Source: a virus
Reading direction: 5' to 3' (one strand)
DNA: 64,000 bases
IMG/VR virus record: IMGVR_UViG_2858635475_000003
Location: 1,400 to 65,399 of that record
Each line of letters starts with the position of its first letter. Position 1 is the first letter of the stretch. A program made the translations under genes and the position numbers. Positions 22,376 through 50,234 of the stretch are shown one piece after another. The notes beneath the pieces were generated by a model that saw only the letters and a list, made by a program, of their open reading frames with translations, searched no databases and was not told where the DNA came from.

Positions 22376-22555
22376 ATGACGAAAATTGAAAAGTGGGCTG
22401 CGCGTGTTTTTGATGACGCTAACCGCCTTCTAGCTGAAAAGATTTGTGTAGGTGAAGTGGTCGCACGAATTGAGGGAGATCGTCTGTTGAGACGGCAAAA
22501 TCCTAAGGCAAATGCGCGACTTTTCATTGCCCCAACAGGGGAATTTTTCGAATGA
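22376..22555 (+). CDS. hypothetical small protein
   Basis: GGGAG SD with an ATG at 22376. Confidence 0.35.
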   Translation: MTKIEKWAARVFDDANRLLAEKICVGEVVARIEGDRLLRRQNPKANARLFIAPTGEFFE

Positions 22556-23841
22556 CACACGCCATGCTCAACACAAAAACCGGAATCCCGCTCAATAAGG
22601 CAAACCGGCATGGCCTCATAACCGGCCAAACCGGAACCGGCAAAACCGTCTCACTGCAACGCCTCACTGAGCAATTCAGCAAGGCAGGCGTGCCAGTCTT
22701 TATCAGTGACGTGAAAGGCGACATTGCCGCTCTTTCGCGATCCTGCCCTACTCAGTTTCTTGACGTTTTCGGGCAAACCGGAAAGCCGCTCAAAGCGGCC
22801 ATTTCCGCCATGGGTGCGGACTTAATGGCGCGTGCCCTGGAATTGACGGATACACAATCCGGCGTGCTCGAAATAGCGTTTGCTTATGCCCGCGATAGCG
22901 GCGCACCGCTGGCCACGATTGCCGATCTGCGGCAATTGCTTTCTGCCATTTCTGAGGACTCGGATTATGTGAATCGGCAGTATGGCCAGATATCGAAAGC
23001 AAGCGTTGGCGTGATTATGCGCGCCCTGTTGCGCCTGGAAACACAAGGCGGCAACGCCTTTTTCGGCAATCCGCAATTCGACGTGGCGGCATTGCTGGAA
23101 ACGATAGAAGAAAAAGTGCAGTTGCCCAACTTCGCTAACGCATTTCACGGTCGTCCACGTTCGCCGGATATCACCTTAGTAACAGACCGACGCGGTCAAG
23201 TTTCCATCCTGCAGGCCGAACGCCTCATTAACTCGCCACGGGTTTACGCGGCCTTCCTGCTATGGCTTCTAACGGAGCTATGGGAACGCCTGCCGGAAAT
23301 AGGCGACATGGATAAGCCGCGACTCGTCATGTTCTTTGATGAGGCACACTTGCTTTTCAGTGAGATCAACCCTGCCCTGTTGCGGCGGATTGAGCAAACC
23401 GTGCGCCTCATCCGCTCCAAAGGCGTTGGCGTCTATTTCGTCACGCAATCCCCCGACGACGTGCCGCACGCCATTCGGGAACAACTGGCATTCCAGATTG
23501 TGCATGATCGTGCCTATCGTATCGGGCAAGCGCACGTTTCCGGTCTCACACAAGACGGCAGGCCGGTTAATCATGGCCTTGTTCAAATCGACTTGCCGGA
23601 ATGCCCGCTAGGCGCGTTGACGGACGACGAGAAACCCGCCGCGCCGGTCACAGTTGAACCCATGGCCGAAAAGCCGCAATGGGCGCGCATGGGCAAGCCA
23701 GAGATTGCGCTGTTACTTGTGATCCTGGTAGCAGGCGGGTTTGTGTCATATGGGCTTGTATGGGCATGGGCGGCCGGTACAATCGGCAAGCTTGCAGCAA
23801 TCGGTTTTGCCGTGGCAATCGCTGGTGTTTTGAGGGGGTGA
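22552..23841 (+). CDS. P-loop NTPase (HerA/FtsK/TraD- or Zot-like) with C-terminal double-TM anchor
   Basis: Walker A ITGQTGTGKT and Walker B LVMFFDEAH. C-terminal hydrophobic segments IALLLVILVAGGFVSYGLVWAWAAGTIGKLAAIGFAVAIAGVL. Confidence 0.65.
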   Translation: MTHAMLNTKTGIPLNKANRHGLITGQTGTGKTVSLQRLTEQFSKAGVPVFISDVKGDIAALSRSCPTQFLDVFGQTGKPLKAAISAMGADLMARALELTDTQSGVLEIAFAYARDSGAPLATIADLRQLLSAISEDSDYVNRQYGQISKASVGVIMRALLRLETQGGNAFFGNPQFDVAALLETIEEKVQLPNFANAFHGRPRSPDITLVTDRRGQVSILQAERLINSPRVYAAFLLWLLTELWERLPEIGDMDKPRLVMFFDEAHLLFSEINPALLRRIEQTVRLIRSKGVGVYFVTQSPDDVPHAIREQLAFQIVHDRAYRIGQAHVSGLTQDGRPVNHGLVQIDLPECPLGALTDDEKPAAPVTVEPMAEKPQWARMGKPEIALLLVILVAGGFVSYGLVWAWAAGTIGKLAAIGFAVAIAGVLRG

Positions 23842-28519: not shown

Positions 28520-29137
28520 ATGGGTACGCAGAACCGCATCAAATGGGATGATCGAAGTGTTGCCACGGCGAGCAGCCTGTGGGCCAGCGGCAAGTCCGTC
28601 ACCGATCTCGCGAGGCATTTCGATGTCAGCCGCAGCACCATCTCAGGCATGATCCTGCGCAACCGGGAAAAGTTCGAGAACCGGTCACGGGCTCCGGTTC
28701 AGCGAATTGAATGGAGCGAGCAGAGCATCGACAAGGCGGTTGCTCTCTGGAAGGAAGGCCGATCGGTCCGCGAGATTGCGGAAAACCTCAACGTTCCGAC
28801 CAGCCAGGCGAACGCCGTGATCTATCGCAACTATCGTGATCGGTTTCCGGTTAGATCGGGGAGCCGCAAACCGCCAAAGCCGGTCGGAGCGCCTGAGGTC
28901 GCCACGTCGTTCGTAAGCACCCAGGCGTCCGAGCGCTACGACTTCACGCAATACCAGATCGAGGGCACGGAACCGGTGCCATACTGGAAGCTCTCAGGCA
29001 GTCAGTGCCATTTTCCCCTCGAACGCTTTGAGGCTGTCAGCGGTCCCGAGACGCCGTGTTGCGGCCAGGGCAATCTCGAAGGGCGGTCCTACTGTAACAC
29101 CCACTGGAAGCTGATGCATGAGGTGAAGGTGCGATGA
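28520..29137 (+). CDS. GcrA-like cell-cycle regulator homologue with duplicated N-terminal DNA-binding domain
   Basis: Two GcrA-N-like repeats (W-DDRSV..LW.SGKSVTDLA..FDVSR.TI.G ; WSEQSI..ALWKEGRSVREIA..LNVP). C-terminal FCG/PYC-x-TH-like block (CCGQGNLEGRSYCNTHWKL). Confidence 0.7.
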   Translation: MGTQNRIKWDDRSVATASSLWASGKSVTDLARHFDVSRSTISGMILRNREKFENRSRAPVQRIEWSEQSIDKAVALWKEGRSVREIAENLNVPTSQANAVIYRNYRDRFPVRSGSRKPPKPVGAPEVATSFVSTQASERYDFTQYQIEGTEPVPYWKLSGSQCHFPLERFEAVSGPETPCCGQGNLEGRSYCNTHWKLMHEVKVR

Positions 29138-31461: not shown

Positions 31462-31587
31462 ATGGCACTCAGGCTTATCGGCGCTTGTGTCGTCGTCACT
31501 CTGATCGCAATCGGCGCAACCTGGTTGCTCAACAATGTCCGCATCAAGCGGAATAACCGTCGCCCAAGGAGGGGCAAAACAGAATGA
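31462..31587 (+). CDS. 41-aa single-TM peptide coupled to the SPFH gene
   Basis: MALRLIGACVVVTLIAIGATWLLNN + basic tail. Preceded by the dyad motif; ATGA overlap with the next gene. Confidence 0.4.
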   Translation: MALRLIGACVVVTLIAIGATWLLNNVRIKRNNRRPRRGKTE

Positions 31588-32447
31588 ACCCTGCGTCTAT
31601 CGTCAAAACTGTTTTCTTTGGTCTGATAGCCATTGTCGCCGCTTCCGTCCTCGGCGGATCATTTTACACCGTCGATGAGGGCGAGCGCGCCGTTGTGGTC
31701 AGCCAAGGCAAGGTCTCCGGTGTATCGGCGCCTGGATTCCACTGGAAGGCTCCATTCATCACCGACGCGCATATCATCAGTGTTCGCACCCAGGCGATCG
31801 AGTTCAAGGACGAGCCGGTTTACACAGCAGACCGGCAGACTGCGACCGTAACGTTCTCGGTCAACTATGCGGCCACGCCCACAGATGCAGAGATCACCAC
31901 TCTATATCGTGAATTTCAGACTCTCGACGGCATCGAGACCCGCGCCCTGAAGCGTCAGGTTCGCGAGCAGATCAAAAACGTATTCGGCACATTCACGGCT
32001 GACACCGCTATCCGCGAGCGCGGCCGGCTGAATACTGAGGTTAGCGCGACCATTGCCACGCTCGGCGAACCTTTGATCAAGATTGAAGGCGTAAACATCG
32101 AGAATATCGACTTCTCCGACGCCGTCGAGCAGGCAGCCGAAGATCGCGCCAAAGCGGAAATGCTGGTGCAGACCGAAAAGCAGAAGCTTGCACGCGAAAA
32201 GGTGATCGCCGAGATCGCGGTCACACAGGCTCAAGCGCAGGCTGACAGCCAGGTCGCCACCGCCAAAGCAAATGCAGAAGCTGTACGATTGAACGGTGAA
32301 GCCGAGGCGGCCGCTATCAAGGCGAAATCTGACGCACTGGCATCGAGCCCCAACCTGGTCGAACTCACCAAAGCGGAAAAATGGAACGGCGCACTGCCCA
32401 CCACCATGGTTCCGGATGCCACCCTCCCCTTCATGCGCATGAACTGA
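31584..32447 (+). CDS. SPFH/band-7 (prohibitin/HflC-like) membrane protein
   Basis: N-terminal TM then an SPFH core (FYTVDEGERAVVVSQGKVSGVSAPGFHWKAPFI...), followed by an Ala/Glu/Gln-rich coiled coil. Confidence 0.75.
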   Translation: MNPASIVKTVFFGLIAIVAASVLGGSFYTVDEGERAVVVSQGKVSGVSAPGFHWKAPFITDAHIISVRTQAIEFKDEPVYTADRQTATVTFSVNYAATPTDAEITTLYREFQTLDGIETRALKRQVREQIKNVFGTFTADTAIRERGRLNTEVSATIATLGEPLIKIEGVNIENIDFSDAVEQAAEDRAKAEMLVQTEKQKLAREKVIAEIAVTQAQAQADSQVATAKANAEAVRLNGEAEAAAIKAKSDALASSPNLVELTKAEKWNGALPTTMVPDATLPFMRMN

Positions 32448-34371: not shown

Positions 34372-34400
34372 AATCAACCATTTGTTGAAGGACAACCCTG

Positions 34401-35246
34401 ATGAATAACGTCGACAACCAGTACATCAGCACGCTGCGAAATCTCCTGGTCAACGGTATCTACCGAGAAGGCCGGAATGGTGGCACCTACGGTCTGTTCG
34501 GTCACCAGATGCGCTTCAATCTGGCCGAAGGATTTCCGCTGTTGACCACCAAGAAAGTTCACTTCCACTCGATCCTCGTTGAACTTTTATGGTTCCTGCG
34601 CGGCGACACGAACATCAAGTTCTTGCATGATCACGGCGTCACTATTTGGGATGAATGGGCTGACGAAAAAGGCGAACTCGGGCCGGTGTACGGGGCACAG
34701 TGGCGCAATTGGTACGGCGCGCATGTCATCGAAGGTACTAGCGATGACGGTGTGATCATTTCCCATAAGGACCAGATCACCGATCTCATCGACGGCATCA
34801 AGAATGACCCTCACGGTCGCCGGCATATCGTGACTGCATGGAATCCGGCCGAAATCGAAAACATGGCATTACCCCCATGCCACTGCCTGTTTCAGTTCCA
34901 TGTCGCCAAGGGTAAACTCTCTTGTCAACTTTATCAGAGATCCGCCGACTGGTTCTTGGGCGTACCCTTCAACATCGCCAGTTACGCACTGCTGACCCAT
35001 CTCGTGGCGCGAGAAACAGGGCTTGAGGTCGGTGACTTCATCCACACATTTGGCGATCTCCACCTCTACGCCAACCACGTAAATCAGGCATGGGAGCAGG
35101 TCGATAGAGAACCACGCCGGCTGCCAACCCTCAAGATCATGGACTTCGGCCAATCGATCCTGGTGAAGGACGACTATGGGGTTGATGACTTTGTGCTGGA
35201 AAACTACGACCCGCACCCTGTCATCCGGGCCGCAGTGTCGAAATGA
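34401..35246 (+). CDS. thyA: thymidylate synthase
   Basis: Full-length ThyA with conserved blocks ([34 protein letters not shown] active-site Cys, [16 protein letters not shown]). Confidence 0.9.
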
Positions 35247-35527
35247 CCTACGATCGCAACGCCACCCTGACCAATGCGCAGCCGGATGAACCATGGACGG
35301 CAGACCGGCTGCTCGACCTCATGGAGTCCATTCCACCGGTTTCGGACCCCCTCAATGGCGCCACCACGCTCTACGTGCATCCTTCTCGCGTCAGTGATGC
35401 AGATCGGATCAACGAGGCTGCCGGTGGTCGCCTCCACATTCAAACCAGCAAACTCGCATCGCCGAACGTCATTGCCGGATTCAAGGGCGACGACTGCGTG
35501 GTGATCATCAAAACGGAGAAGTCATGA
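35243..35527 (+). CDS. hypothetical protein
   Basis: Coupled ORF. Confidence 0.4.
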
Positions 35528-36075
35528 AGATTGTCTTTATCAATGGCAAGAAGCGAGCCGGCAAGGACACGTTCGTCGGATACCTGGAGTCTTCTGCTCG
35601 CTTCCACAAAATCCGTGTTCAGGCAGTTTCATCTATCGACCCTGTGCGCGAGGCGCTGGCCTCCATGGGTATCGACATCAACCAGAAGACACCTGAGTTG
35701 CGTGCCGCCATGTCGGAGATCGGAGATGTTCTGCAGAACAGGTTCCAGTTTCGATCGAAGTGGGTTTGCATGCGCGCCCTCGATGCGGACTTGGATTCCG
35801 CTCACATTTTCGTCGTCCATATGCGCGAACCCGAGATAATAGAGCAAACGATCGCTCTGCTGGCGCAATTCGATTTCCACGACGTGACGAAAATCTTCAT
35901 CGAATCTGATCGCGGTGACGTTGAGGAAAACAGTAACGCATCGGATCGGGATGTTTGGCGCGAGGGCTTCTATGACGAAGTCTATCCGAACAACGGCACC
36001 GTCCAGGAATTATCGCACAAGGCTGGCGCTTTTCTGAAAAAGCTGTTTCCGGGGCGCACTGGCGTCTTGCGCTAA
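35524..36075 (+). CDS. deoxynucleoside monophosphate kinase (T4 gp1-like)
   Basis: N-terminus [16 protein letters not shown] closely parallels T4 dNMP kinase MKLIFLSGVKRSGKDT. Confidence 0.65.
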   Translation: MKIVFINGKKRAGKDTFVGYLESSARFHKIRVQAVSSIDPVREALASMGIDINQKTPELRAAMSEIGDVLQNRFQFRSKWVCMRALDADLDSAHIFVVHMREPEIIEQTIALLAQFDFHDVTKIFIESDRGDVEENSNASDRDVWREGFYDEVYPNNGTVQELSHKAGAFLKKLFPGRTGVLR

Positions 36076-36125
36076 GCAAATAATCAACATATAGTTGACT
36101 AACACCACAAAAAGGAGTCGGGCGA

Positions 36126-36298
36126 TGGATCAGCCCATCTACCAGCGCATCGTGACGGAAAGTCATCTGGATGCGGAATGCCAGAAGTTCGTCGAGCGCG
36201 AGTTTCCGAAAGCCGTGCGCGCCGTGAACCGGTTCAGCGGCAAGGCCAATCCACCGGCTGCCGTCAAGTCCGCGGAGGGTCGTCCCGATGGTCGATAA
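36126..36298 (+). CDS. hypothetical small protein
   Basis: AAAGGAG SD. Confidence 0.35.
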
Positions 36299-36533
36299 CA
36301 GGGTTTTCGAGCGCATCAAGAACACGATGGTCAACTGCCAGCAGTTCCCGGCCGACCTGATCACGCCAGATGCGTCGATCGACAGTCTCGGCGGCGACAG
36401 CCTGGACGACATCGAGTTGGCGATCCTGCTCGAAGATGAATTCAACATCGAGATCAACGACGGTGCGTTCGACGTGAAGACGCCGATCTCGCAGATCGTA
36501 ACAGCAATCGAAGGGATCATGGCGGATGGCTAA
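36288..36533 (+). CDS. acyl carrier protein-like protein
   Basis: Phosphopantetheine-attachment signature [26 protein letters not shown] (cf. [20 protein letters not shown]). Confidence 0.65.
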
Positions 36534-36813
36534 GATCGGTCACAACAGCGGCGATGAAGACGACATCATGGGCACGACGGAGACGGTTGCTGCCGCCGAG
36601 CTTCGCCAGTTCGTCGAGCGGGTCGAAAGGCTGGAAGAAGAAAAGGCCGCCATCCAGGGCGACATCAAGGATGTGCTCGGAGAAGCCAAGGGTCGCGGCT
36701 ACGACACCAAGGCAATCCGCACCATCATCCGCCTGCGCAAGAAAGATGCGAACGAGCGGATCGAGGAAGAAACCATTCTGCAGACCTATATGGCTGCGCT
36801 CGGGATGGAGTGA
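36526..36813 (+). CDS. GapR-like nucleoid-associated protein (DUF2312/UPF0335)
   Basis: [70 protein letters not shown] matches the conserved GapR core. Confidence 0.75.
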
Positions 36814-36816
36814 CCG

Positions 36817-37029
36817 ATGACAATCCGTCTCTCCCAACCCCAAGCCGTTCTGCTCACCGAACTGCGCTCGGCCGGCAGCAAGGGCGTGTTCAAATCCACG
36901 GCTTACTCGCCGGCAGATCACCTCGTCGCCATGGGCTACGCCAAGTGGGCTCGCAGGTTCGACAATGGGCGTTCCGGCTGCCTGGTCATCACACCGAAGG
37001 GTGTGGCGTTTAAAGAGGGGCGCCTGTGA
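36817..37029 (+). CDS. hypothetical protein
   Basis: Coupled ORF. Confidence 0.4.
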   Translation: MTIRLSQPQAVLLTELRSAGSKGVFKSTAYSPADHLVAMGYAKWARRFDNGRSGCLVITPKGVAFKEGRL

Positions 37030-37241
37030 TGGCACAGCCGTTCTGGAAACGGGCACTTCTCGTCACAATCGATATCGGTGCGCTCGTGGCAGTAATCCTT
37101 TTGCTCTCGGCTTTGATCGCCGCGGTGCTGACCATCTCGCTACCAGTTCATGAGGATTATCTTTCTGTCTTGCGACGGGTCACGCTTCTGAACGCGGCTT
37201 TTGTTGCAGCGAAACTGTTCTTTGGTTGGGTGCAGAAATGA
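37026..37241 (+). CDS. hypothetical membrane protein
   Basis: Two hydrophobic helices. Confidence 0.4.
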   Translation: MMAQPFWKRALLVTIDIGALVAVILLLSALIAAVLTISLPVHEDYLSVLRRVTLLNAAFVAAKLFFGWVQK

Positions 37242-37444
37242 CCCCCTCTTTCGTCGAGCGTTTGAGAGACAGCGGGTTTACCCACATTTCGTTCGACCTG
37301 TCGAAGGCTGTCACGATCACGGCTTGGCGGAAGACGGAGCGGAAGACATACAGTGCCTACATGGCGCCTAGTCTGGCTGCCGCAGAAGCGCACATCCTCG
37401 CTCAACTGAAACCTGAACCAGATTTTTCGGATGTCCTCGGATGA
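37238..37444 (+). CDS. hypothetical small protein ending DFSDVLG
   Basis: C-terminal tail motif; ATGA-coupled. Confidence 0.4.
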   Translation: MTPSFVERLRDSGFTHISFDLSKAVTITAWRKTERKTYSAYMAPSLAAAEAHILAQLKPEPDFSDVLG

Positions 37445-37680
37445 GCGCTGATTTTCAAAAGTCCATCACGTTCTCGATCATGAGCGCCAAGGTCGAAGCG
37501 TTGGAAGACGCCATTCGTGCCATTCGCAATGCGCGGCAAGGCTTCCTTGAAGGAATACTCGGCGGCGAGGACATCGACGATTGCATTGACAGCGCGATCG
37601 AGTTGCTGCCGGAAAACGTGAAGCCAGACCGACGCAAGCAGCTAAAGCCCAAGGAGCCGTTCGATGACGTTCTCGGCTGA
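37441..37680 (+). CDS. hypothetical small protein ending PFDDVLG
   Basis: C-terminal tail motif. Confidence 0.45.
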   Translation: MSADFQKSITFSIMSAKVEALEDAIRAIRNARQGFLEGILGGEDIDDCIDSAIELLPENVKPDRRKQLKPKEPFDDVLG

Positions 37681-37948
37681 AGAACTGGTGTCCCTGCTGG
37701 ATGAGGCCATGACAAGCGGCGACTGGCACTCGGTTCGCATCTTCAATGGTGCGGCTGTCAGCAGCCCCGGCATTCTGGTGAGCATGGGTCGCGATCACAG
37801 TTCATTCACTGTCGACCAGCTTTCTGCCGAAGCGCGTCCATCCGAAAAGCTGCTTTGGCTGCTGAGAGACAATCTGCGCCGAGGAAGTGCGGGCGCACCT
37901 GAACTAACATCGAGCGATCCTATGGCTGATCTGCTCGAAGACATTTAG
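37664..37948 (+). CDS. hypothetical protein
   Basis: 94 aa; ends ADLLEDI. Confidence 0.4.
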   Translation: MTFSAEELVSLLDEAMTSGDWHSVRIFNGAAVSSPGILVSMGRDHSSFTVDQLSAEARPSEKLLWLLRDNLRRGSAGAPELTSSDPMADLLEDI

Positions 37949-37956
37949 GAATTTCG

Positions 37957-39555
37957 ATGACGACAATCACCCTGCACCCCGGCGATAACATTCTTTCAAT
38001 GAGAGGGATGGCGGAAAACAGCGTGCATAGCGTGGTGACAGACCCGCCGTATATGCTCACAAGCATCGTCAAGCGCTTTGGAAAAGAAGGTTCTGCGCCA
38101 GCCAAGACTTCTGGTAATGACGGTTCTTTTGCACGCCTTTCGGCTGGTTTCATGAACAAACAGTGGGACTCTCCAAGAGTGGAATTGCCGCCATTGAGTT
38201 CTGACTTCGGTCATTACATGGCAGGCTTGATTGACGGGGAAGGATGTTTTCATGTGCATCGGAAACTGGTAAACAACTGTGAGACCTACGACTGCCAATT
38301 TTCAATAACCCTCCGCTCTGATGACAAAGACATTCTCGTGGAGATGCAGCGCCAACTCGGCGGCATAGGCTCCTTGGCTCATCGGCCAGCGCGTGACAAC
38401 GCCAATAGCCAAGCGCGCTTCTGCATTAGCTCGAAAGCACATTGTCAGGTTCTACGGGCGGCTCTAAGCGTATTTCCATTGCGCGCAAAAAAGGCTCGTG
38501 ACTTTGAGATTTGGTGTCATGCACTTGATGCATGGGTCAATCACGAACCGAAATCCTCATGGGAAGACGTGTCTTTCTATCGTGACCAATTGATGATGGT
38601 GAAGCGTTTCGGAAGCCTCTATAAGCCCGAATTCCTTTTCCACTATCGTTGGGCCAAAGAAGCTTTCAGAGTTCTAAAACCAGGCGGCTGCATATTCGCC
38701 TTCTCCGGATCTCGCACTGGCCACTGGCAGGCAGCCGCCATGGAACTTGCAGGTTTTATCATGCATCCTATGCACGGTTGGTGTTTTGGATCTGGAATGC
38801 CGAAGCCTACCAATTTAAAAGGCGTTCCCGGTTACGAGGGGTGGGGTTATGGCACGCAAACACAGAAGCCTGCTCTGGAACCCATATACCTCGGTCAGAA
38901 GCCTTTCAGCGAAAAGACAGGTCCACTTAATGTTTTGAAGCACGGCGTGGGCGGTTTCAATCTTGAGGATTGTTCTGTCCCAAGTGCCAAGGGTGACCCC
39001 CGCCGACCCGCCAATCTGATCCTCGACGGCTCGCCGGAAGTGGTTGCGATGTTCCCTGACTCCAAAGGGCAGCAAGGCGCTGTGCGCGGCGATGAGCCTA
39101 GCGGTGTCACGAAGGATATCTACGGCAAGTTCAATGGCCGCGTTCCAGCGCCAGTCCGTGGTGACAGCGGTTCCGCAGCACGGTTCTTCCACCAGTTCGG
39201 ACCTGACGCCGACCCGCTGATCTATCACGGTAAAGCCGGCAAAACGGATCGCGCTGGCGGCAATCATCCCACGGTCAAGCCGATCGCCCTCATGAAGTAT
39301 CTCATCCGGCACATCACGCCACCTGGCGGCATTGTGCTCGACCCGTTCGCCGGCAGCGGCACCACAGGCGAAGCGGCGAAGCGTGAGGGCATGGACTGCA
39401 TTCTCATGGAAGCCGAGCCCGAATACATCGAATTTCTGGAAAAGCGGTTCGACATCGCAAAACCGGAGTTCGATTTCGACGACATCCTCGGCGAAGCTTT
39501 GCCGATCAAATCAACAAATAGTGGAGATACGTTTCATGACATTCTCGGTGCTTGA
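37957..39555 (+). CDS. beta-class (CcrM-type, DPPY) N6-adenine/N4-cytosine DNA methyltransferase with embedded LAGLIDADG domain and double DxxDILG tail
   Basis: Motif IV VVTDPPYML near the N-terminus and motif I LDPFAGSGTT near the C-terminus (beta order). Between them lies YMAGLIDGEGCF (LAGLIDADG). The C-terminus reads DFDDILGEALPIKSTNSGDTFHDILGA*. Confidence 0.8.
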   Translation: MTTITLHPGDNILSMRGMAENSVHSVVTDPPYMLTSIVKRFGKEGSAPAKTSGNDGSFARLSAGFMNKQWDSPRVELPPLSSDFGHYMAGLIDGEGCFHVHRKLVNNCETYDCQFSITLRSDDKDILVEMQRQLGGIGSLAHRPARDNANSQARFCISSKAHCQVLRAALSVFPLRAKKARDFEIWCHALDAWVNHEPKSSWEDVSFYRDQLMMVKRFGSLYKPEFLFHYRWAKEAFRVLKPGGCIFAFSGSRTGHWQAAAMELAGFIMHPMHGWCFGSGMPKPTNLKGVPGYEGWGYGTQTQKPALEPIYLGQKPFSEKTGPLNVLKHGVGGFNLEDCSVPSAKGDPRRPANLILDGSPEVVAMFPDSKGQQGAVRGDEPSGVTKDIYGKFNGRVPAPVRGDSGSAARFFHQFGPDADPLIYHGKAGKTDRAGGNHPTVKPIALMKYLIRHITPPGGIVLDPFAGSGTTGEAAKREGMDCILMEAEPEYIEFLEKRFDIAKPEFDFDDILGEALPIKSTNSGDTFHDILGA

Positions 39556-39832
39556 AGACGACAATAAGCTGAACCACATCGCCACAGACCTGTCGGCCCA
39601 ACTGAAGGCGTTGACGGACGCCCTGGTGGCGCAAGGCAAGCACGTGACCATCCTCGTCACCGAACAGGACGACCGAGGTGAATTCGAGTATGCTGTAGTC
39701 AGCACGATCGATGATCACGAGGAACTGATGACGATGGTCGACGACGTTTCCAGTGACCTGCTCGCGCCATATGTAGAGGTGGACGAGGACGACCAGCCGG
39801 AACTCCCGTTTAAGACCGAGACTATCCAATGA
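39536..39832 (+). CDS. hypothetical acidic protein
   Basis: ATG preceded by a dyad motif that lies inside the 3' end of the MTase gene. Confidence 0.5.
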   Translation: MTFSVLEDDNKLNHIATDLSAQLKALTDALVAQGKHVTILVTEQDDRGEFEYAVVSTIDDHEELMTMVDDVSSDLLAPYVEVDEDDQPELPFKTETIQ

Positions 39833-40065
39833 GGAAGATCGAGGTCACGCCGTCTGTCGACTGGCCGGTGGGCCGGAAAATCGTTCTGCTCGACGCCTAT
39901 CTGCAGAACCCTGTCACCGTGAAAATCACGCGACACCCTAATGCCGATCACCTGATCTGCGAGGATGACCGCGGTGTGGTCTATTACGCTCGCACCGACC
40001 GAGTTGAAGGTTTTGTGAACGAGCCTTTCGATTCAATTGATGACTTCTCCGACATTCTCGGTTAA
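39829..40065 (+). CDS. hypothetical small protein ending DDFSDILG
   Basis: C-terminal tail motif. Confidence 0.5.
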   Translation: MRKIEVTPSVDWPVGRKIVLLDAYLQNPVTVKITRHPNADHLICEDDRGVVYYARTDRVEGFVNEPFDSIDDFSDILG

Positions 40066-45474: not shown

Positions 45475-47682
45475 TCAAAGTGTGCGCGACATTGGGAACC
45501 GATACTTTTGGAATGATGTCAAGCCGCCTCGAACTGCTTCAAGTTCGACAAACATGGAACCGGTAAGGGTATTGTCCGACGAGGTGAATGTGCGGAAGTT
45601 CGTAGTGATGCCGGCGATCGTTCGGATCAAAGCGTTGCTCGAACTGTAGAATCTCAGGGTGTAGGTCGTATCCGGTTCAGGGCCTACGCTCGCATCCCAA
45701 TGGCTCACAATCTGGTCCGACTGCATCTTGCGGTCACGATGCGCCCAATCAATCCGAAAACTTGATCCGGCCGCAACATTGTTGAAAGCCGGCGTCGAGT
45801 TGACCGTGACCCCGCCAGGAACGTATGGACGCCCCTGCCGCCCGACAATCGAGAGGGTGTCCGTTGGCGCGAGAGTCGGATCGAGGGTTGCCGACGAGCT
45901 ATTCGATAGCAACTTCGCTTCCACCACATCGCTCGACACGTATTCACGAGAATCGGTTCCGACATACTCGCCGAGGAAGATGATCTGAGCATTGTCAGAG
46001 TGCGGTGCTGGCACCGTATCAACACAGCCCCGCTTCACCGTGAATGTTCCCGCGATCCCCGTTCCATCGAGCGCGATATCCACGACTTGGAGGATTTCCG
46101 TGTCGATCTGCAGCAAGCTACCGGCTACCATCAAGCCCACATCAACACCGCCGTCAAAGGGAACCGTGGTGTCGTAGTAACCGATCGCCCCGTTGCATAA
46201 GGCACCTGGAGCAAACGCCTCGCTTCCTCTGATCGTGAAATCCTCGGCACCGACGCGGGTTGAGATCGAATAATTCAACAGCATCTGTGCCGGTCGAACG
46301 GCGGCTGTCACCAGAGCGGATGAGTTTACGTCAAGGATTGCGAGATCGGCCGGCGTCAACTGTCCAATCAGTTCTTGGTAAGTTGCCTCCCTGACGATAC
46401 GAACCGGGACAACTTGCGGAGTGGAAATCGGCGGAACCCAAGCTGGATTTTCCGGTGAGACGAAAGCAGTTGACGAAAGGCCAAACACATCCAGCGCCGC
46501 CTCAACGGTAATCGTTCCATCCTTCAAGGTGCCATCGTTGATCTTCCCGGCACGTAGCACAAGGTTCTGGATGCCCATGTCCGGATCGGAGATGCGAAAG
46601 ACCTTGCCGGGGTGAATGCGCCATGCTCGCCGGTCCAACTTCACCGTATAGCGGTTCGTGCTTGCAGAAAGGGTTCTCAGGTCCCGTTGCGCGACACGAG
46701 CCGCGAGAGACAGGATTGGAATTCCATCGTAAGTGTTGGTCTTGGAACTCGTGCCTTCATTCGATTGAATGGCTGCCAGATTTTGGGCACGCACCTCTTT
46801 CGAACCGTTGAGAATTACGTCTTTGTATCTGATAATAACCTCGCTTATGGCGTCGGCCTGCGTTGCAGCTTCCGACTGGTCGACTGACAACAAACCCGTG
46901 TTGCGGTCAAACAGGGGAATCTCGTCGACATCATAGTCATCGCGGATCAGGTCTAGGTCCAGAAGGCCGGTCTCACGATTCACGTAAAGCGTTCCGCCAA
47001 TGTGGTCCAACACCTCTTGAATAAAGCTTTCGAGAGAATCCTGGCGGGACCAGCGCATGCAGAGCCCGAAACCCTCATTGAAAAGCGTTGTGGCTGTCTT
47101 GAACCATGTCGCATCACCGATGCGCGATCTGTCGTATCCGCGTCCCCACTCTCTATTGGTCACGCATTCGTACAAGATATGCGCGGCGTTCATGGCGCGA
47201 ATCTGGCCACCTGCGAGCCAAATGGTTGCTAGTTCCGGATGCCAGACAGGACCGTCCCATCCCGCCGTGGTTCGTCGCAAGCGAAAAGACCACTTCTTGG
47301 GGTAAGGGTTCAGCGCGCATATCATGCCGTCAAAGACAACGGTTGCTACGCCGCGAAAATCCGGAACGTCGCCACCGAGAAGCCCTTTGAACCAACTTGG
47401 ATAAAACTGCGAGGCACTACCCATCAGTGCGGTCAGCGAGCCTTGGATACCGCCTTCCGCCTTCTCCCCGCCGAACAAATCTGGCGCGTTAATTGAGGTG
47501 ACCCTGTCCCCTGTTATGGTTGAATCGTAATTGCCCTGCCCCTCCCGATAGGGCCAGGCGGATTTATCCCCCACCTTTATCTGCACGATCTCGTCTACCG
47601 GACCGCGGCAAAGCCCGTATTGGACTGTCATGAAATATCGATAGCCAATGGTTTGGCTTTTACCTTTACCGCCCACGCTCAA
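45475..47682 (-). CDS. host-specificity/central tail fibre protein (GTA g15 / Phage-tail_3-like)
   Basis: Size, position after the distal-tail genes and N-terminal conserved block typical of gpJ/g15-like proteins. Confidence 0.65.
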   Translation of the reverse strand: MSVGGKGKSQTIGYRYFMTVQYGLCRGPVDEIVQIKVGDKSAWPYREGQGNYDSTITGDRVTSINAPDLFGGEKAEGGIQGSLTALMGSASQFYPSWFKGLLGGDVPDFRGVATVVFDGMICALNPYPKKWSFRLRRTTAGWDGPVWHPELATIWLAGGQIRAMNAAHILYECVTNREWGRGYDRSRIGDATWFKTATTLFNEGFGLCMRWSRQDSLESFIQEVLDHIGGTLYVNRETGLLDLDLIRDDYDVDEIPLFDRNTGLLSVDQSEAATQADAISEVIIRYKDVILNGSKEVRAQNLAAIQSNEGTSSKTNTYDGIPILSLAARVAQRDLRTLSASTNRYTVKLDRRAWRIHPGKVFRISDPDMGIQNLVLRAGKINDGTLKDGTITVEAALDVFGLSSTAFVSPENPAWVPPISTPQVVPVRIVREATYQELIGQLTPADLAILDVNSSALVTAAVRPAQMLLNYSISTRVGAEDFTIRGSEAFAPGALCNGAIGYYDTTVPFDGGVDVGLMVAGSLLQIDTEILQVVDIALDGTGIAGTFTVKRGCVDTVPAPHSDNAQIIFLGEYVGTDSREYVSSDVVEAKLLSNSSSATLDPTLAPTDTLSIVGRQGRPYVPGGVTVNSTPAFNNVAAGSSFRIDWAHRDRKMQSDQIVSHWDASVGPEPDTTYTLRFYSSSNALIRTIAGITTNFRTFTSSDNTLTGSMFVELEAVRGGLTSFQKYRFPMSRTL

Positions 47683-47878
47683 ACTCCTTCCGAGCCTGTG
47701 CCGTGACCCTCAGTGCAAGGGGATCGCCCGTGGCTTCCATTTTCTCGATGGGAATTCCGTTGGCGATGAAATCGGACCAGTCGAAACCATGTCGAGAGAA
47801 CCATTCTCTTGTCCCGCCCGCACAAAGATTGGCTGCTCTGATGTGACGCATGAAAACGGTGATGGATTGGTTCGCCAT
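47666..47878 (-). CDS. hypothetical small tail-module protein
   Basis: 70 aa coupled ORF. Confidence 0.4.
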   Translation of the reverse strand: MANQSITVFMRHIRAANLCAGGTREWFSRHGFDWSDFIANGIPIEKMEATGDPLALRVTAQARKEFERGR

Positions 47879-47879
47879 G

Positions 47880-48185
47880 TTACTTCTTTCCGCCGCCAGA
47901 TTTTATTGCTGATGTACGCAGATTGCCGTACCAGAGGACAAACTGGTCCTCAGTCCAAACGTCACCGAAAACAACGGGCTGGGGCGTTCCCTCGTCGAAT
48001 TGAGGGAAGTCGAATTCTTCGAGAGAAGCAGGCTTCTGAGCCTCTGTTTTGGGTGTCAGAAGAACCTGGATAGCGTAGGATGCGATCAGCATCCCCAAGC
48101 CCCAAAGGAAGTTGATGAATGCGTAGACCGGCTTGATCTCGCCACTTGCAATCATCTCGACGCTCAATGTTTTCAAATCACTCAT
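47880..48185 (-). CDS. hypothetical tail-module membrane protein
   Basis: Start at the internal Met (MSDLKTLSVEM) overlapping the upstream stop (ATGA); one TM. Confidence 0.45.
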   Translation of the reverse strand: MSDLKTLSVEMIASGEIKPVYAFINFLWGLGMLIASYAIQVLLTPKTEAQKPASLEEFDFPQFDEGTPQPVVFGDVWTEDQFVLWYGNLRTSAIKSGGGKK

Positions 48186-49000
48186 CAGAACACCGGATCG
48201 CCTTGGAACGGTGATTTTCCAGGCATGTGCGGAATGCCACCGAAGTTCGGAAGGTTGTTGAATTTGTTCTTGCAGTCTTCGCGAGTGCGGGAACACCCTG
48301 GATAGGCAGTGATCATGTCACCCGCTTTCAGACCGGCGCCCGTTCCGAAAATGTTGAAGGTCGTGCCAGAATGGTTCTCGATCCCGCGGCGTTCAATCGC
48401 ACCGGCAAACCGAGGCCACTCGATAAAACCATTGGAGAAATGTGCGGCCGGAAAGCCCGCAAGGTCTGACGAGGTTATGACGTTCCCGCTGATTGCGTCG
48501 ATTTCAAACGTCACCCCGTATGAAGCCTTTGGAACTCTGCAACTGATGTCATAGAGGGCGTGCGGGCATTGCCGACCCCAACTCAACCGCAACCCGTTTC
48601 GATTGAAACCGGATGTCAGCATCTTGAGCGAGATTTCGACAGATACTGTGTCGATCTGTTTGCAACTAACCGCGTACCCTACCCACACGATCGGAGCAGA
48701 TGTTTCCCCACGGTGATGGCGCCGGATCAACAGCCAGACTTTTTCGCTTGGTGGCTGCCCGTTGAGCATGATTGCGACCGGGAGTGACTTAGGTAACGTG
48801 ACCTTCATTTCATCCGAGGACGCATCGCCTGATTGTTCGACGCCAGAATCCGTAATGGGTATCGCGATGTAGGTGGTGTCACCAAGCACGGTGTCTTCGT
48901 CGTCAGTTGAGTATTCCCACTTGGCAGTCCCGAACGTAAACTCGTAAAGGGCAATCGGTTCACCAAGGTTGTTCGAGATTTCGATTGCGTCGTGACTCAT
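48185..49000 (-). CDS. distal tail protein (BR0599/DUF2163-like, GTA g13 analogue)
   Basis: Conserved-phage-protein pattern and position between g12-like and g15-like genes. Confidence 0.6.
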   Translation of the reverse strand: MSHDAIEISNNLGEPIALYEFTFGTAKWEYSTDDEDTVLGDTTYIAIPITDSGVEQSGDASSDEMKVTLPKSLPVAIMLNGQPPSEKVWLLIRRHHRGETSAPIVWVGYAVSCKQIDTVSVEISLKMLTSGFNRNGLRLSWGRQCPHALYDISCRVPKASYGVTFEIDAISGNVITSSDLAGFPAAHFSNGFIEWPRFAGAIERRGIENHSGTTFNIFGTGAGLKAGDMITAYPGCSRTREDCKNKFNNLPNFGGIPHMPGKSPFQGDPVF

Positions 49001-49001
49001 C

Positions 49002-50234
49002 TTAGAACCCCGCCAGTGCAGTTCGGAGCGGTGGCGCCGACTTGAAGGTTGCAGCGCAACGAGAGACCCCTTGAGTGTCAGTCACGTGCACGATCTCGAT
49101 CCGGTCTTGGTCCAGGCGGGACAACCTCATGAAGCTGACACGCATCACATCTTCCGGAAGCAAACCTTCCTCAAAAGGCTGATCAACGCCGATAACCTCC
49201 ACGTCGTCATTCAAAACCGTGCTGCTCGTTACGCGGCGGTATTCTCGCCGCCCATCGCAGAAGAAGATTGCAAGATGATCGTGTCCAACTTGAAGTCCGC
49301 CCGACAAGGTGAAGCCGAAGTTCTCGACAAGTAGATACTGGTCGCCGGCCGGCGTCGGATCGGCGAGGCGCATATCGTCAGTGAACGAAGGGAGCCAGAC
49401 ACTCCCCCATCGCCCACGCAGCCCGAACAGTAGTGATTTCAGCTTCCTATAGTCTTGTCTGCCGGAAGAAACCCAATTGTGCTTCTGCGTCGGAAACGGG
49501 ATGCCCGCGATGTCAAAGAATTGCGGGATCGAGGTGTCGTTATCAAGTTCATCCATAATCCGGCTGAACGTGAAATCAGTGTTGTCGCTCTCGTCTGGCG
49601 GTGTGTTGAGAACGTTAAGCCCTCCGTAAACATCCAGATGTGAGACGATTACGGTGTCAGTCACTACATCGTCATTTCGTTCCATTATCCGGAAGTTGAT
49701 CGAGAACGACATCGCGCTGTCGCTGACCTTCCGGAGTGTCGGCTGATCATCCAATCGCGCCTTGCGCACCGGATGGATTTTCGAAAAGGCTTCCCATCCG
49801 CTTTCCAGCGGCGCGGCCAAGGTGATGGTGGTTGACGACACTGCGGAGACTTCCGCGAGTTCGAACTGACGGGCCTTGGCTCCCCCGATGAAGATTACGT
49901 CACCGACGCGGATACCGCCATTGTCCGCAAACGGAATCGGTATTGATGTTGCACCCGCCAGAACGCCGGCACCCGATCGGTAAGACTCATGCCATTGTGG
50001 CAGATAGAAGTTGCGACCACTGTGCGCTTCAAGGAACTGCCGGAACACCTGCCTGTCGTTGTTGCCGACTGCGGAGGTGAACTCGATCGTCTTGCGAGGA
50101 TAGAGGCGCAGCGATCGACGCTGTTCCGCACCTTTCGGCGAGGTTAGAACATCCGTCAGCCACTCAAGGGCTTCCGTATATGTTCCAGCCCAATTCGGCT
50201 CGAAGGTCCAGGTGGGTAAAATCTCAATCGCCAT
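49002..50234 (-). CDS. distal tail protein (DUF2460-like, GTA g12 analogue)
   Basis: Directly downstream of the tape measure; start at the in-frame ATG. Confidence 0.55.
   Translation of the reverse strand: MAIEILPTWTFEPNWAGTYTEALEWLTDVLTSPKGAEQRRSLRLYPRKTIEFTSAVGNNDRQVFRQFLEAHSGRNFYLPQWHESYRSGAGVLAGATSIPIPFADNGGIRVGDVIFIGGAKARQFELAEVSAVSSTTITLAAPLESGWEAFSKIHPVRKARLDDQPTLRKVSDSAMSFSINFRIMERNDDVVTDTVIVSHLDVYGGLNVLNTPPDESDNTDFTFSRIMDELDNDTSIPQFFDIAGIPFPTQKHNWVSSGRQDYRKLKSLLFGLRGRWGSVWLPSFTDDMRLADPTPAGDQYLLVENFGFTLSGGLQVGHDHLAIFFCDGRREYRRVTSSTVLNDDVEVIGVDQPFEEGLLPEDVMRVSFMRLSRLDQDRIEIVHVTDTQGVSRCAATFKSAPPLRTALAGF

What the first reader, a model, noticed from the sequence alone, without database searches (positions are those of the whole stretch)
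36288..36813. Acyl carrier protein homologue adjacent to a GapR homologue
The DSLD phosphopantetheine site is intact. Phage ACPs are rare. This could be a host fatty-acid or polyketide hijack, or a decoy for a host enzyme. Note that it begins inside the stop region of the preceding micro-ORF, and its start overlaps, so coding status needs checking.

GapR next door is known in alphaproteobacterial phages but is worth functional study: supercoil sensing during phage replication.
Basis: partly seen in the sequence, partly recalled or inferred. Interest (0 to 1): 0.55.

Follow-up and report, generated by a model that had tools for sequence, protein, structure and literature searches.

The report
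Orphan phage ACP linked to GapR
A temperate Agrobacterium phage carries a real acyl carrier protein gene with no partner enzymes of its own; in every sampled relative it sits directly upstream of a GapR DNA-binding gene and a 70-residue unknown gene, which hints at a DNA-related role that has not been shown.

Summary
Window 36288-36533 (+) encodes an 81-aa acyl carrier protein (ACP): Pfam PP-binding above threshold, a confident AlphaFold model whose top PDB matches are all ACPs, and an intact G-G-D-S38-L-D site. Window 36526-36813 (+) encodes a 95-aa GapR-family protein. The overlapping start is genuine; coding is supported by conservation, dN/dS below 1, a conserved Shine-Dalgarno site and unconserved antisense ORFs.

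The window is a Casjensviridae-like temperate Agrobacterium phage. No phosphopantetheinyl transferase, ketosynthase, adenylating enzyme or soluble acyltransferase was detected, so the ACP is an orphan that would depend on host AcpS (inferred).

The new result is that ACP, GapR and a 70-aa basic protein are contiguous and tightly packed in all 12 sampled lineages, down to about 40% ACP identity, while flanking genes are replaced. GapR alone occurs in 154 phage records, only one with this ACP.

Function is untested. My best guess (about 0.33) is a holo-ACP acting with GapR and the 70-aa protein on DNA, as AcpP does with MukB. Hijack of host fatty-acid synthesis is nearly as likely.

Two side findings: a recurrent intergenic palindrome and a recurrent peptide motif, often C-terminal.

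The parts
36083..36099 (.). Inverted repeat ATCAAC-N5-GTTGAC in the 49-nt gap upstream of the ACP unit. It lies inside a TTGCnn-N17-TAnnnT promoter-like frame and is probably the upstream boundary or control site of the cassette.
   Evidence: Conserved at the same place in at least 9 related loci, even where the upstream gene is replaced. It is one of 33 copies of this palindrome in the window against 2.6 expected. The simple sigma-70 scan does not call a promoter here.
36125..36298 (+). 57-aa micro-ORF overlapping the ACP start by 11 nt. Its 3' end carries the ACP Shine-Dalgarno site.
   Evidence: Homologous in the close clade (51-86% identity in L002, L110, L111, L113). RHph_X2_30 has a weakly similar 48-aa ORF with the same 11-nt overlap. 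There is no counterpart in L114-L116. dN/dS 0.33-0.42. No family hit.
36288..36533 (+). 81-aa orphan acyl carrier protein, AcpP-like; Ser38 is the predicted 4'-phosphopantetheine site.
   Evidence: Pfam PP-binding. AF2 pLDDT 85.2, pTM 0.73. Foldseek top 35 PDB hits are all ACPs, TM 0.67-0.78. PDB profile search: best hits are Thermus ACP 1x3o and Brucella AcpP 2n57. D37, S38, D40, E49, E51 and F52 are invariant across 10 lineages. dN/dS 0.25-0.69.
36526..36813 (+). 95-aa GapR-family (DUF2312) DNA-binding protein. Its start overlaps the ACP stop by 8 nt, and its Shine-Dalgarno site lies in the ACP's conserved I-E-G codons.
   Evidence: Pfam GapR_DNA-bd 1.7e-32; NF010247 above cut-off. Juxtaposition ranges from a 1-nt gap to a 20-nt overlap in the 7 lineages measured. 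dN/dS 0.05-0.22.
36817..37029 (+). 70-aa basic protein (pI 10.4) of unknown fold; the third constant member of the trio.
   Evidence: 50-96% identical in all 10 lineages aligned and present in 11 of 11 loci. Found in only one phage record (RHph_X2_30) and 5 protein clusters, always in this phage group. No Pfam, PHROG, NCBIfam or PDB match. The AF2 model is poor, pLDDT 57.
37029..39555 (+). Rest of the same cassette: four small variable ORFs, then a CcrM-like N6-adenine DNA methyltransferase (37957-39555) with a LAGLIDADG insertion. The next palindrome copy is at 39510.
   Evidence: Pfam N6_N4_Mtase and LAGLIDADG_1. NCBIfam CcrM models hit only the C-terminal part, below cut-off. A methyltransferase (N6_N4 or MT-A70 type) follows the trio in the related loci long enough to show it.
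34401..36075 (+). Upstream cassette (context, not part of the trio): canonical thymidylate synthase, a 94-aa ORF, and a 183-aa P-loop protein resembling T4 gp1 dNMP kinase.
   Evidence: ThyA scores above the NCBIfam equivalog cut-offs. The kinase-like protein hits PHROG 139 at 3e-7 and Pfam DNMK weakly. In relatives these genes are swapped for ThyX and DUF3310.

Best explanation
Shown: the ORF encodes a real, selectively maintained, AcpP-like carrier protein of a temperate Agrobacterium siphophage.

Inferred: the phage has no phosphopantetheinyl transferase, and the protein keeps Ser38 and the helix-II acidic residues that AcpS-type enzymes and ACP client enzymes recognise. It is therefore most likely converted to holo-ACP by the host AcpS.

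It does not belong to a phage-encoded biosynthetic pathway. It is the first conserved gene of an early cassette and is translationally coupled to a GapR-family DNA clamp. A 70-aa basic protein follows, and a DNA methyltransferase lies further downstream.

Proposed mechanism (inferred, not shown): the small acidic holo-ACP acts as a subunit or regulator of the co-expressed GapR and/or 70-aa protein during phage DNA replication or transcription. The precedent is E. coli AcpP, which binds MukB and is needed for its activity. On this reading the ACP does not supply acyl groups for lipid synthesis.
For: Identity:
- Pfam, PHROG and NCBIfam hits; ACP fold; closest solved relatives are type II FAS ACPs, including an alphaproteobacterial AcpP.
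- Ser38 and D37, D40, E49, E51, F52 are invariant; E43 is kept in 9 of 10 lineages and I56 and D58 in most, at only about 40% overall identity.
- dN/dS is below 1.

Orphan status:
- No PPTase, ketosynthase, acyltransferase or AMP-ligase was detected in the scanned window proteins.
- None is annotated in the complete relative RHph_X2_30.

Linkage:
- ACP, GapR and the 70-aa gene are contiguous in the window and in L002, L113, L110, L111, L001, L007, L114, L115, L116, L118 and L119.
- Flanks vary: micro-ORF 4/10, TM protein 1/10, kinase 7/10 (otherwise DUF3310 or absent), thyA 6/10 (ThyX in at least two loci).
- The GapR start abuts or overlaps the ACP stop in all 7 lineages measured.
- The ACP and the 70-aa gene have the same narrow distribution, whereas GapR is widespread.
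- A conserved palindrome and promoter-like element precedes the unit in all lineages examined.

Precedent: AcpP binds MukB and is required for its ATPase and in vivo function (PMC8602292).
Against: - There is no direct evidence of any ACP-GapR or ACP-70-aa contact. A complex could not be modelled with these tools.
- GapR works without an ACP in Caulobacter and is present without this ACP in about 150 other phage records. That includes the closest GapRs: phages 7-7-1, Atu_ph08 and Atu_ph04.
- All trio lineages belong to one broadly syntenic phage group. Flank replacements look like swaps between functional equivalents, at least for ThyA/ThyX. Conserved adjacency may therefore reflect backbone synteny, not function.
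- In the MukB precedent apo-ACP works as well as holo-ACP (section titles). That would not explain the strict conservation of the serine here.
- Three distant relatives of the ACP have other neighbours: a TM peptide, an OmpR-like protein and a ketosynthase.
Confidence: 0.33

Rival explanations
1. Metabolic hijack. The host AcpS makes holo-ACP, which host FabD, FAS or acyl-ACP synthetase then load. The phage ACP diverts or supplies acyl groups (membrane lipid, lipid A, acyl-homoserine-lactone or another acylation) during lytic growth. On this view the position next to GapR is only conserved genome order.
For: It is closer to housekeeping AcpP (32-39% identity to solved AcpPs) than to the specialised rhizobial-type ACP RPA2022 (24-25%). 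Helix-II residues used by FAS enzymes are conserved. The serine is strictly conserved, as expected if a prosthetic group is needed. PHROGs files phage ACPs as auxiliary metabolic genes.
Against: The phage has no acyl-handling enzyme. The one Acyl_transf_3 gene (15860-16972) lies far away and is missing from RHph_X2_30. The gene sits in a DNA-metabolism operon and is not a separately expressed moron: no promoter or terminator signal above chance. It scores below every NCBIfam AcpP cut-off. This view does not explain the invariant pairing with GapR and the 70-aa gene.
Confidence: 0.28
2. Decoy or inhibitor. The phage ACP mimics host AcpP and titrates a host ACP-binding protein (AcpS, a FAS or lipid A enzyme, or an ACP-dependent regulator) to shut down or re-programme the host.
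For: It is an orphan with a conserved AcpP-like recognition helix but a fast-evolving remainder (dN/dS 0.25-0.69, against 0.05-0.22 for GapR). It is very acidic (charge about -13.5). It has a clade-specific conserved patch, N16-C17-Q18-x-F20-P21-A22, near the end of helix I.
Against: A pure decoy would not need the serine, yet it is invariant in every family member seen. The NCQxFPA patch is not conserved in the deeper trio lineages. No anti-defence or defence family hit.
Confidence: 0.15
3. Carrier for an unknown covalent modification. The modification would be made by uncharacterised genes of the same cassette (small ORFs 37029-37948, the 94-aa ORF, or the methyltransferase region), for example modification of DNA or of a protein.
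For: The cassette holds several conserved unknowns (w94 in 9/10, w94b in 7/10, w79 in 6/10). It sits between nucleotide-metabolism genes and a DNA methyltransferase.
Against: None of the unknowns resembles an adenylating, condensing or transferase enzyme. They are mostly under 100 aa. ThyA is a canonical thymidylate synthase and is interchangeable with ThyX, which argues against a hydroxymethyl-dU hypermodification pathway.
Confidence: 0.1
4. Not functional: a decaying captured host gene or a chance ORF.
For: It scores below the curated AcpP cut-offs and is the fastest-evolving of the three genes.
Against: The ORF is intact in 12 lineages down to about 40% identity, with invariant functional residues, dN/dS below 1, good codon adaptation (GC3 0.82) and a conserved Shine-Dalgarno site.
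Confidence: 0.03

Closest known systems
Bacterial type II FAS acyl carrier protein AcpP (e.g. E. coli AcpP; Brucella AcpP, PDB 2n57; Thermus ACP, 1x3o)
   Same: Same length, helical-bundle fold and D-S-L attachment motif. Equivalents of E. coli D35, S36, D38, E41, E47-E49, F50, I54 and D56 are present. Similar pI of about 4.
   Different: Only 32-39% identical. Below all NCBIfam AcpP cut-offs, e.g. 40.7 against 70.45 bits for TIGR00517. Not next to fab genes. Phage-encoded and embedded in a DNA-metabolism operon. Helix I and the following loop carry N-C-Q-x-F-P-A in the close clade.
Other phage-encoded orphan ACPs (PHROG 5934 and 4154; Erythrobacter phage vB_EliS-R6L ORF32; Ralstonia phiRSL1; jumbo phages)
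   Same: Small orphan PP-binding proteins in phage genomes, annotated as auxiliary metabolic genes. Their function is described as unclear (PMC5463345).
   Different: The other viral ACPs sampled (L008-L026) lack the helix-I signature, and none has a GapR, 70-aa or kinase homologue within the flanks held, up to 6 kb each side. This clade stands alone in a profile search of 1.84 billion representatives: 162 bits for its own cluster, then 73 bits.
AcpP-MukB interaction in E. coli
   Same: An ACP acting as a non-enzymatic partner of a chromosome-organising protein, and required for its activity (PMC8602292). This is what the proposed mechanism resembles.
   Different: GapR is unrelated to SMC/MukB. 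No interaction has been shown here. In MukB both apo- and holo-AcpP stimulate, whereas here the serine is strictly conserved.
GapR (Caulobacter nucleoid-associated protein; DUF2312/UPF0335) and its phage homologues
   Same: The neighbour 36526-36813 is a clear family member. Homologues occur in 154 phage records, nearly all from alphaproteobacterial hosts. They have been noted as phage 'AMGs' (PMC12185513).
   Different: It scores below the Caulobacter GapR equivalog cut-off, 92 against 140 bits. It has an N-terminal M-A-x-I-G-H-N-S extension. Only in this phage group is it flanked by an ACP and the 70-aa gene.
Specialised rhizobial ACPs (NodF, AcpXL, RkpF; solved representative RPA2022, PDB 3lmo/2kw2)
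   Same: The host lineage is known for several dedicated ACPs (own knowledge). The fold matches, TM 0.71-0.73. One cellular relative with an NCQ-like motif sits next to a ketosynthase (P0055).
   Different: Only 24-25% identical to RPA2022. No dedicated ketosynthase or acyltransferase partner in the phage.

Membership tests
Acyl carrier protein / PP-binding superfamily (PF00550) | Profile match above the curated threshold | tested here: met
   34.3 bits against a gathering score of 20.8, E=2.8e-8. A profile of the clade hits 105 PDB ACP sequences at E up to 0.001.
Acyl carrier protein / PP-binding superfamily (PF00550) | Helical-bundle carrier fold of about 80 residues | tested here: met
   AF2 pLDDT 85.2, pTM 0.73, helices 5-18, 41-52 and 67-80. 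Foldseek top 35 hits are all ACPs, TM 0.67-0.78, probability 1.00.
Acyl carrier protein / PP-binding superfamily (PF00550) | Conserved D-S-L serine at the N-terminus of helix II | tested here: met
   G35-G36-D37-S38-L39-D40. D-S is invariant in all 12 close-clade sequences, all 10 trio lineages and all distant relatives read.
Acyl carrier protein / PP-binding superfamily (PF00550) | Covalent 4'-phosphopantetheine on the serine | not testable with these tools
   Needs intact-mass spectrometry (+340 Da) of protein expressed in Agrobacterium, or in vitro AcpS/Sfp assays.
Housekeeping AcpP (NCBIfam TIGR00517 / PRK00982 equivalogs) | Score above the curated equivalog cut-off | tested here: not met
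   Best scores are 45.1 against 71, 42.5 against 92 and 40.7 against 70.45 bits. It is AcpP-like but not an AcpP orthologue.
Housekeeping AcpP (NCBIfam TIGR00517 / PRK00982 equivalogs) | Location in a fab/pls gene cluster | tested here: not met
   The neighbours are thyA, a dNMP-kinase-like gene, GapR and a DNA methyltransferase. No fab genes were detected in the window.
Self-contained phage ACP-dependent pathway (ACP plus its own PPTase or loading enzyme) | Phage-encoded PPTase, ketosynthase, acyltransferase or adenylating enzyme | tested here: not met
   Pfam scan of nearly all called window proteins found none. Not scanned: tape measure, three tail/baseplate-region proteins at 47666-50234, and a few short doubtful ORFs. 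The only hit is a membrane Acyl_transf_3 protein at 15860-16972, which is not conserved in RHph_X2_30. None is annotated in the complete RHph_X2_30 genome.
GapR / DUF2312 (PF10073) | Profile match above the curated threshold | tested here: met
   PF10073 111.3 bits against 22.6; NF010247 122.7 against 94.
GapR / DUF2312 (PF10073) | Equivalog of Caulobacter GapR (NF052541) | tested here: not met
   92.1 bits against a cut-off of 140. It is a family member, not a demonstrated functional equivalent.
GapR / DUF2312 (PF10073) | Restriction to alphaproteobacteria and their phages | tested here: met
   The host is Agrobacterium. Phage homologues come mainly from Rhizobium, Rhodobacter, Agrobacterium, Ruegeria, Caulobacter and Brevundimonas phages.
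GapR / DUF2312 (PF10073) | Tetrameric clamp on overtwisted DNA; stimulation of gyrase and topo IV | not testable with these tools
   Needs biochemistry or structure determination. Known only for Caulobacter GapR (as cited in PMC12185513).
Anti-phage defence or anti-defence systems (PADLOC) | Match to a known defence-system protein model | tested here: not met
   No hit for the ACP, GapR, the micro-ORF, the 70-aa protein or six neighbours.

The most novel reading that the evidence does not exclude
ACP, GapR and the 70-aa basic protein form a previously undescribed three-part phage nucleoid module. In it a phosphopantetheinylated, possibly acylated, carrier protein controls a supercoil-sensing DNA clamp. 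This would tie phage DNA replication or transcription to the host's CoA and fatty-acid state, as a phage counterpart of AcpP-MukB.
Probability: 0.15. Interest if true: 0.8.

Novelty: new member of a known kind. Interest (0 to 1): 0.5.

Why it matters
No phage-encoded ACP has an assigned function in the literature searched. This one comes with a concrete, testable lead. It is an orphan carrier protein whose only constant companions, across phages that have diverged to about 40% identity, are a topology-sensing DNA clamp and a small basic protein.

If the three act together, this would be a second example after AcpP-MukB of an ACP working in chromosome biology, and the first in a virus. It would also suggest a route by which a temperate phage reads host metabolic state.

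If the ACP instead feeds on host fatty-acid synthesis, it is an unusual auxiliary metabolic gene for a soil phage of plant-associated bacteria.

In either case the system is tractable: an Agrobacterium prophage, small proteins, and a single serine to mutate.

Tried and rejected
- Genome-contig scan with the ACP alignment: swamped by ordinary cellular ACPs, because the patterns chosen were generic. It gave no information on the phage clade.
- Metagenome scan with the 70-aa protein profile: no confirmed relatives.
- Viral scan with the same profile: only re-found the contigs of L002 and L007.
- AlphaFold model of the 70-aa protein: pLDDT 57, too poor for a fold search. Pfam, NCBIfam, PHROG and PDB profile searches found nothing.
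- PADLOC: nothing.
- Simple sigma-70 and terminator scan: no more sites than chance on the + strand. The conserved TTGCnn-N17-TAnnnT frame I saw by eye fails the tool's -35 criterion.
- Thymidine-hypermodification pathway (ThyA-like hydroxymethylase plus DNA kinase): rejected. ThyA passes the thymidylate synthase equivalog cut-offs and is replaced by ThyX in relatives.
- Acyl_transf_3 membrane protein as the ACP's partner: rejected as a conserved partner, because it is absent from RHph_X2_30 and not linked.
- N-C-Q-x-F-P-A motif with its Cys as a family-wide functional signature: rejected. It holds only in the closer clade; the Cys is at that position in 6 of 10 trio lineages, and a similar motif occurs in a cellular ACP next to a ketosynthase.
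- GapR-containing phages of similar size (RHph_Y60, RHEph19, 7-7-1) as same-backbone controls: they have a different backbone, with GapR after the DNA polymerase, so they cannot show paired loss of the ACP and the 70-aa gene.
- Literature: no paper in the held library discusses this ACP or an ACP-GapR linkage.
Full report
**What is at the coordinates.** Window 36288-36533 (+) is an 81-aa ORF and 36526-36813 (+) a 95-aa ORF. The first matches Pfam PP-binding (34.3 bits, gathering score 20.8) and PHROG 5934 'acyl carrier protein'. It also matches a series of NCBIfam ACP models at 1e-10 to 7e-12, but all are below their curated cut-offs. Its attachment motif is G-G-D37-S38-L-D.

The second ORF matches Pfam GapR_DNA-bd (E=1.7e-32) and NCBIfam NF010247 above cut-off. 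It falls below the cut-off of the Caulobacter GapR equivalog.

A 57-aa micro-ORF (36125-36298) overlaps the ACP start by 11 nt, and the ACP stop overlaps the GapR start by 8 nt.

**Is the ACP a real gene?** Yes.
- The identical protein is annotated as an ACP in Agrobacterium radiobacter, on a 2.97-Mb contig (a prophage). It also sits on a 69.5-kb contig.
- Homologues at 39-90% identity occupy the same position in 11 other loci.
- Pairwise dN/dS is 0.25-0.69. That is purifying selection, though weaker than on GapR (0.05-0.22) or the downstream 70-aa gene (0.03-0.35).
- A GGAGG-type Shine-Dalgarno site lies 8-9 nt upstream, inside the micro-ORF, in the window and in relatives.
- Sense-strand GC3 is 0.82. 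The long antisense ORFs (35897-36520 and 36517-37056) have GC3 of 0.61 and are broken at different places in relatives.
- An AlphaFold model built from the clade alignment is confident (pLDDT 85.2, pTM 0.73). Its top 35 PDB matches are all ACPs (TM 0.67-0.78).
- By sequence profile, the nearest solved proteins are type II FAS ACPs, including Brucella AcpP.

**What kind of genome is this?** A Pfam scan of nearly all called proteins shows a temperate-type siphophage. The tape measure, three tail/baseplate-region proteins (47666-50234) and a few short doubtful ORFs were not scanned. The scan found:
- structural and lysis genes: lambda-type portal, major capsid protein E, decoration protein D, tape-measure chaperone, muramidase
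- replication genes: prim-pol primase, DNA polymerase, SNF2 helicase
- others: RtcB, HerA-like ATPase, GcrA, dCMP deaminase, ThyA, and a CcrM-like methyltransferase

The window is collinear with Rhizobium phage RHph_X2_30 (Casjensviridae, with an integrase). 50 of 97 called genes have homologues there.

No phosphopantetheinyl transferase, ketosynthase, adenylating enzyme or soluble acyltransferase was detected in the window. None is annotated in the complete RHph_X2_30 genome. The single Acyl_transf_3 membrane protein (15860-16972) is unlinked and has no RHph_X2_30 homologue. The ACP is therefore an orphan. If it is modified, the host AcpS must do it (inference).

**Residues.** I aligned the protein to E. 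coli AcpP. The phage protein keeps the equivalents of D35, S36, D38, E41, E47, E49, F50, I54 and D56; these are D37, S38, D40, E43, E49, E51, F52, I56 and D58. From my own knowledge of the ACP literature, these are the helix-II residues through which AcpS and FAS enzymes recognise ACP.

D37, S38, D40, E49, E51 and F52 are invariant across ten lineages. E43 is kept in nine of ten, and I56 and D58 in most, at about 40% overall identity. Every distant relative I read also keeps D-S. Such strict conservation of the serine argues that the prosthetic group matters. That weighs against a pure mimic or decoy role.

The closer clade also has an invariant N16-C17-Q18-x-F20-P21-A22 patch. It is not kept in the deeper lineages, and a similar motif occurs in a cellular ACP next to a ketosynthase. 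I do not treat it as defining.

**The main new result: a conserved trio.** ACP, GapR and a 70-aa basic protein (36817-37029, pI 10.4) are contiguous in all 12 lineages: the window, L002, L113, L110, L111, L001 (RHph_X2_30), L007, L114, L115, L116, L118 and L119.

Five of these loci were reached through a profile search of 1.84 billion representatives. In that search the clade's own cluster scores 162 bits and the next hit only 73 bits. The next-best short hits turned out to sit in the same arrangement.

Relative to the window, ACP identity falls to 39-46%, GapR to 52-62% and the 70-aa protein to 50-66%.

The flanks turn over:
- thyA is present in 6 of 10 loci, and ThyX takes its place in at least two others
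- the P-loop kinase-like gene is present in 7 of 10, with DUF3310 in its place in the others
- the micro-ORF is present in 4 of 10
- the gene after the 70-aa gene is shared in only 1 of 10

When the conserved M-A-x-I-G-H-N-S N-terminus is used to place the GapR start, it abuts or overlaps the ACP stop in all seven lineages measured, from a 1-nt gap to a 20-nt overlap. The GapR Shine-Dalgarno site falls in the ACP's conserved I-[EK]-G codons.

GapR alone is common: 154 phage records, usually in replication modules next to a DNA polymerase. This ACP and the 70-aa gene each occur in only one phage record, the same one, and in few protein clusters (12 and 5).

**Cassette structure.** The 49-nt gap upstream of the micro-ORF holds a perfect-to-near-perfect inverted repeat, ATCAAC-N5-GTTGA[TC]. 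It lies within a TTGCnn-N17-TAnnnT frame and is conserved at this spot in at least nine lineages, whichever gene lies upstream.

The palindrome is not specific to this site. It occurs 33 times in the window against 2.6 expected, and about 23 copies lie in short intergenic gaps. Neighbouring copies at 34373, 36083 and 39510 split the region into two cassettes: a thyA, 94-aa and kinase cassette, and a cassette running from the micro-ORF through the ACP, GapR and the 70-aa gene to the methyltransferase. The ACP therefore belongs with GapR and the methyltransferase, not with the nucleotide-supply genes. The simple promoter scan does not call a promoter here, so the regulatory role is an inference.

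**Mechanism.** Nothing here shows function directly, so I rank the readings.

1. Holo-ACP acting with GapR and/or the 70-aa protein on DNA (0.33). This rests on the invariant, translationally coupled linkage, the matching narrow distribution of the ACP and the 70-aa gene, and the AcpP-MukB precedent (PMC8602292).
   - Against it: GapR plainly works without an ACP elsewhere. All trio lineages share one syntenic backbone. MukB does not need the prosthetic group.
2. Hijack of host fatty-acid synthesis by a host-loaded ACP (0.28). This fits the AcpP-like sequence and the conserved serine. It explains neither the genomic context nor the lack of any phage acyl enzyme.
3. Decoy for a host ACP-binding protein (0.15). 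The invariant serine disfavours it.
4. Carrier for an unknown modification made by cassette unknowns (0.10). No enzyme-like candidate exists.
5. Non-functional (0.03). The conservation data contradict it.

**Comparison with what is known.** Phage ACPs are known and annotated as auxiliary metabolic genes of unclear function (PMC5463345; PHROGs). They are rare in deposited genomes: 24 of 50,697 records with an E. coli AcpP query. GapR in phages has been noted only as an annotated 'AMG' (PMC12185513).

Identical and related proteins are already labelled 'acyl carrier protein' in GenBank. The gene itself is therefore a new member of a known kind. The conserved link between the ACP, GapR and the 70-aa gene is not described in any paper in the held library. 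It is the part worth following up.

**Limits.**
- Twelve lineages from one phage group are not independent samples.
- Context look-ups for distant relatives were capped.
- Three distant ACP relatives have other neighbours: a TM peptide, an OmpR-like winged-helix protein and a ketosynthase. The trio therefore defines a sub-family, not all ACPs with this helix-I signature.

Noticed in passing
window, 33 sites, e.g. 817, 3921, 6464, 9758, 12747, 19096, 20594, 25058, 26468, 27005, 28476, 31007, 33094, 34373, 36083, 41550, 50267, 56907, 59124: A genome-wide intergenic palindrome, ATCAAC-N5-GTTGAT, gives 33 matches (up to 2 mismatches) against 2.6 expected (maximum 7 in 100 shuffles). About 23 copies lie in short gaps at gene boundaries, in operons on both strands. 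The copy upstream of the ACP unit is conserved in related phages. It looks like a multi-copy operator ('stoperator'-like) or an RNA hairpin that marks out cassettes. What binds it is unknown.
   Followed up: partly
window proteins 10291-12747, 17139-17696(-), 37238-37444, 37441-37680, 37957-39555 (twice), 39829-40065, 62137-63954(-) (twice); also RHph_X2_30 (L001) small ORFs: A short peptide motif, F-x-D-[IV]-L-G, occurs 10 times against 0.33 expected in shuffled proteomes. One of the ten is internal to GapR. Five sit at or within one residue of a C-terminus: four small proteins and the methyltransferase. The methyltransferase has a second internal copy, the primase one, and the portal one near each end. 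Codons vary synonymously, so it is a peptide motif, not a DNA element. RHph_X2_30 has it as well. It may be a docking tail for a hub protein.
   Followed up: partly
window 6039-6413(-), 6516-7193(-), 9163-9690(-), 10291-12747, 18832-19083, 37664-37948, 58763-59095(-): Seven proteins, including the Enc34-type ssDNA-binding protein, end in an acidic tail of the form [DE]-[DE]-[IL] (for example DDDEEI, DFDDI, DFDDL). This recalls SSB C-terminal interaction tails.
   Followed up: no
window 37957-39555 (+): The CcrM-like N6-adenine DNA methyltransferase (532 aa) carries an in-frame LAGLIDADG homing-endonuclease domain (aa 88-189). It lies between the N-terminal DPPY motif and the rest of the enzyme. 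Relatives have 415-465-aa versions with no LAGLIDADG hit on record. This looks like a mobile insertion or intein-like element.
   Followed up: partly
window 28520-29137 (GcrA), 36526-36813 (GapR), 37957-39555 (CcrM-like): The phage carries homologues of three alphaproteobacterial cell-cycle or nucleoid factors together: GcrA, GapR and a CcrM-type methyltransferase. RHph_X2_30 also has GcrA and GapR plus a DNA methyltransferase of a different type.
   Followed up: no
L111, L113, L114, L119 compared with window 34401-36075: Two upstream genes are swapped for unrelated genes in related phages. ThyA alternates with ThyX, and the T4 gp1-like P-loop kinase alternates with a DUF3310 protein. ThyA and ThyX are functional equivalents; the function of DUF3310 is not established here.
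   Followed up: partly
window 36505-36533 and the same place in L001, L110, L113: The conserved I-[EK]-G near the ACP C-terminus is encoded by GAAGGG or AAGGGG, which also serves as the Shine-Dalgarno site of GapR. This dual constraint may lower synonymous change at the ACP 3' end (ACP dS is 0.13 against 0.42-0.93 for its neighbours, window versus L002).
   Followed up: partly
window 12813-14219, 15860-16972(-), 22552-23841, 31584-32447: Accessory genes unusual for a siphophage of this size: an RtcB RNA ligase, an Acyl_transf_3 membrane acyltransferase (a possible surface-polysaccharide modifier), a HerA-like ATPase with a C-terminal membrane segment, and an SPFH/Band 7 protein.
   Followed up: no
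L125:893-1171: A distant relative of the ACP (P0030) is followed, with an 8-nt overlap, by a different small putative DNA-binding protein: a zinc-ribbon-like N-terminus plus an OmpR-type winged helix, judged by eye. This is a second case of an orphan viral-type ACP coupled to a DNA-binding protein.
   Followed up: no
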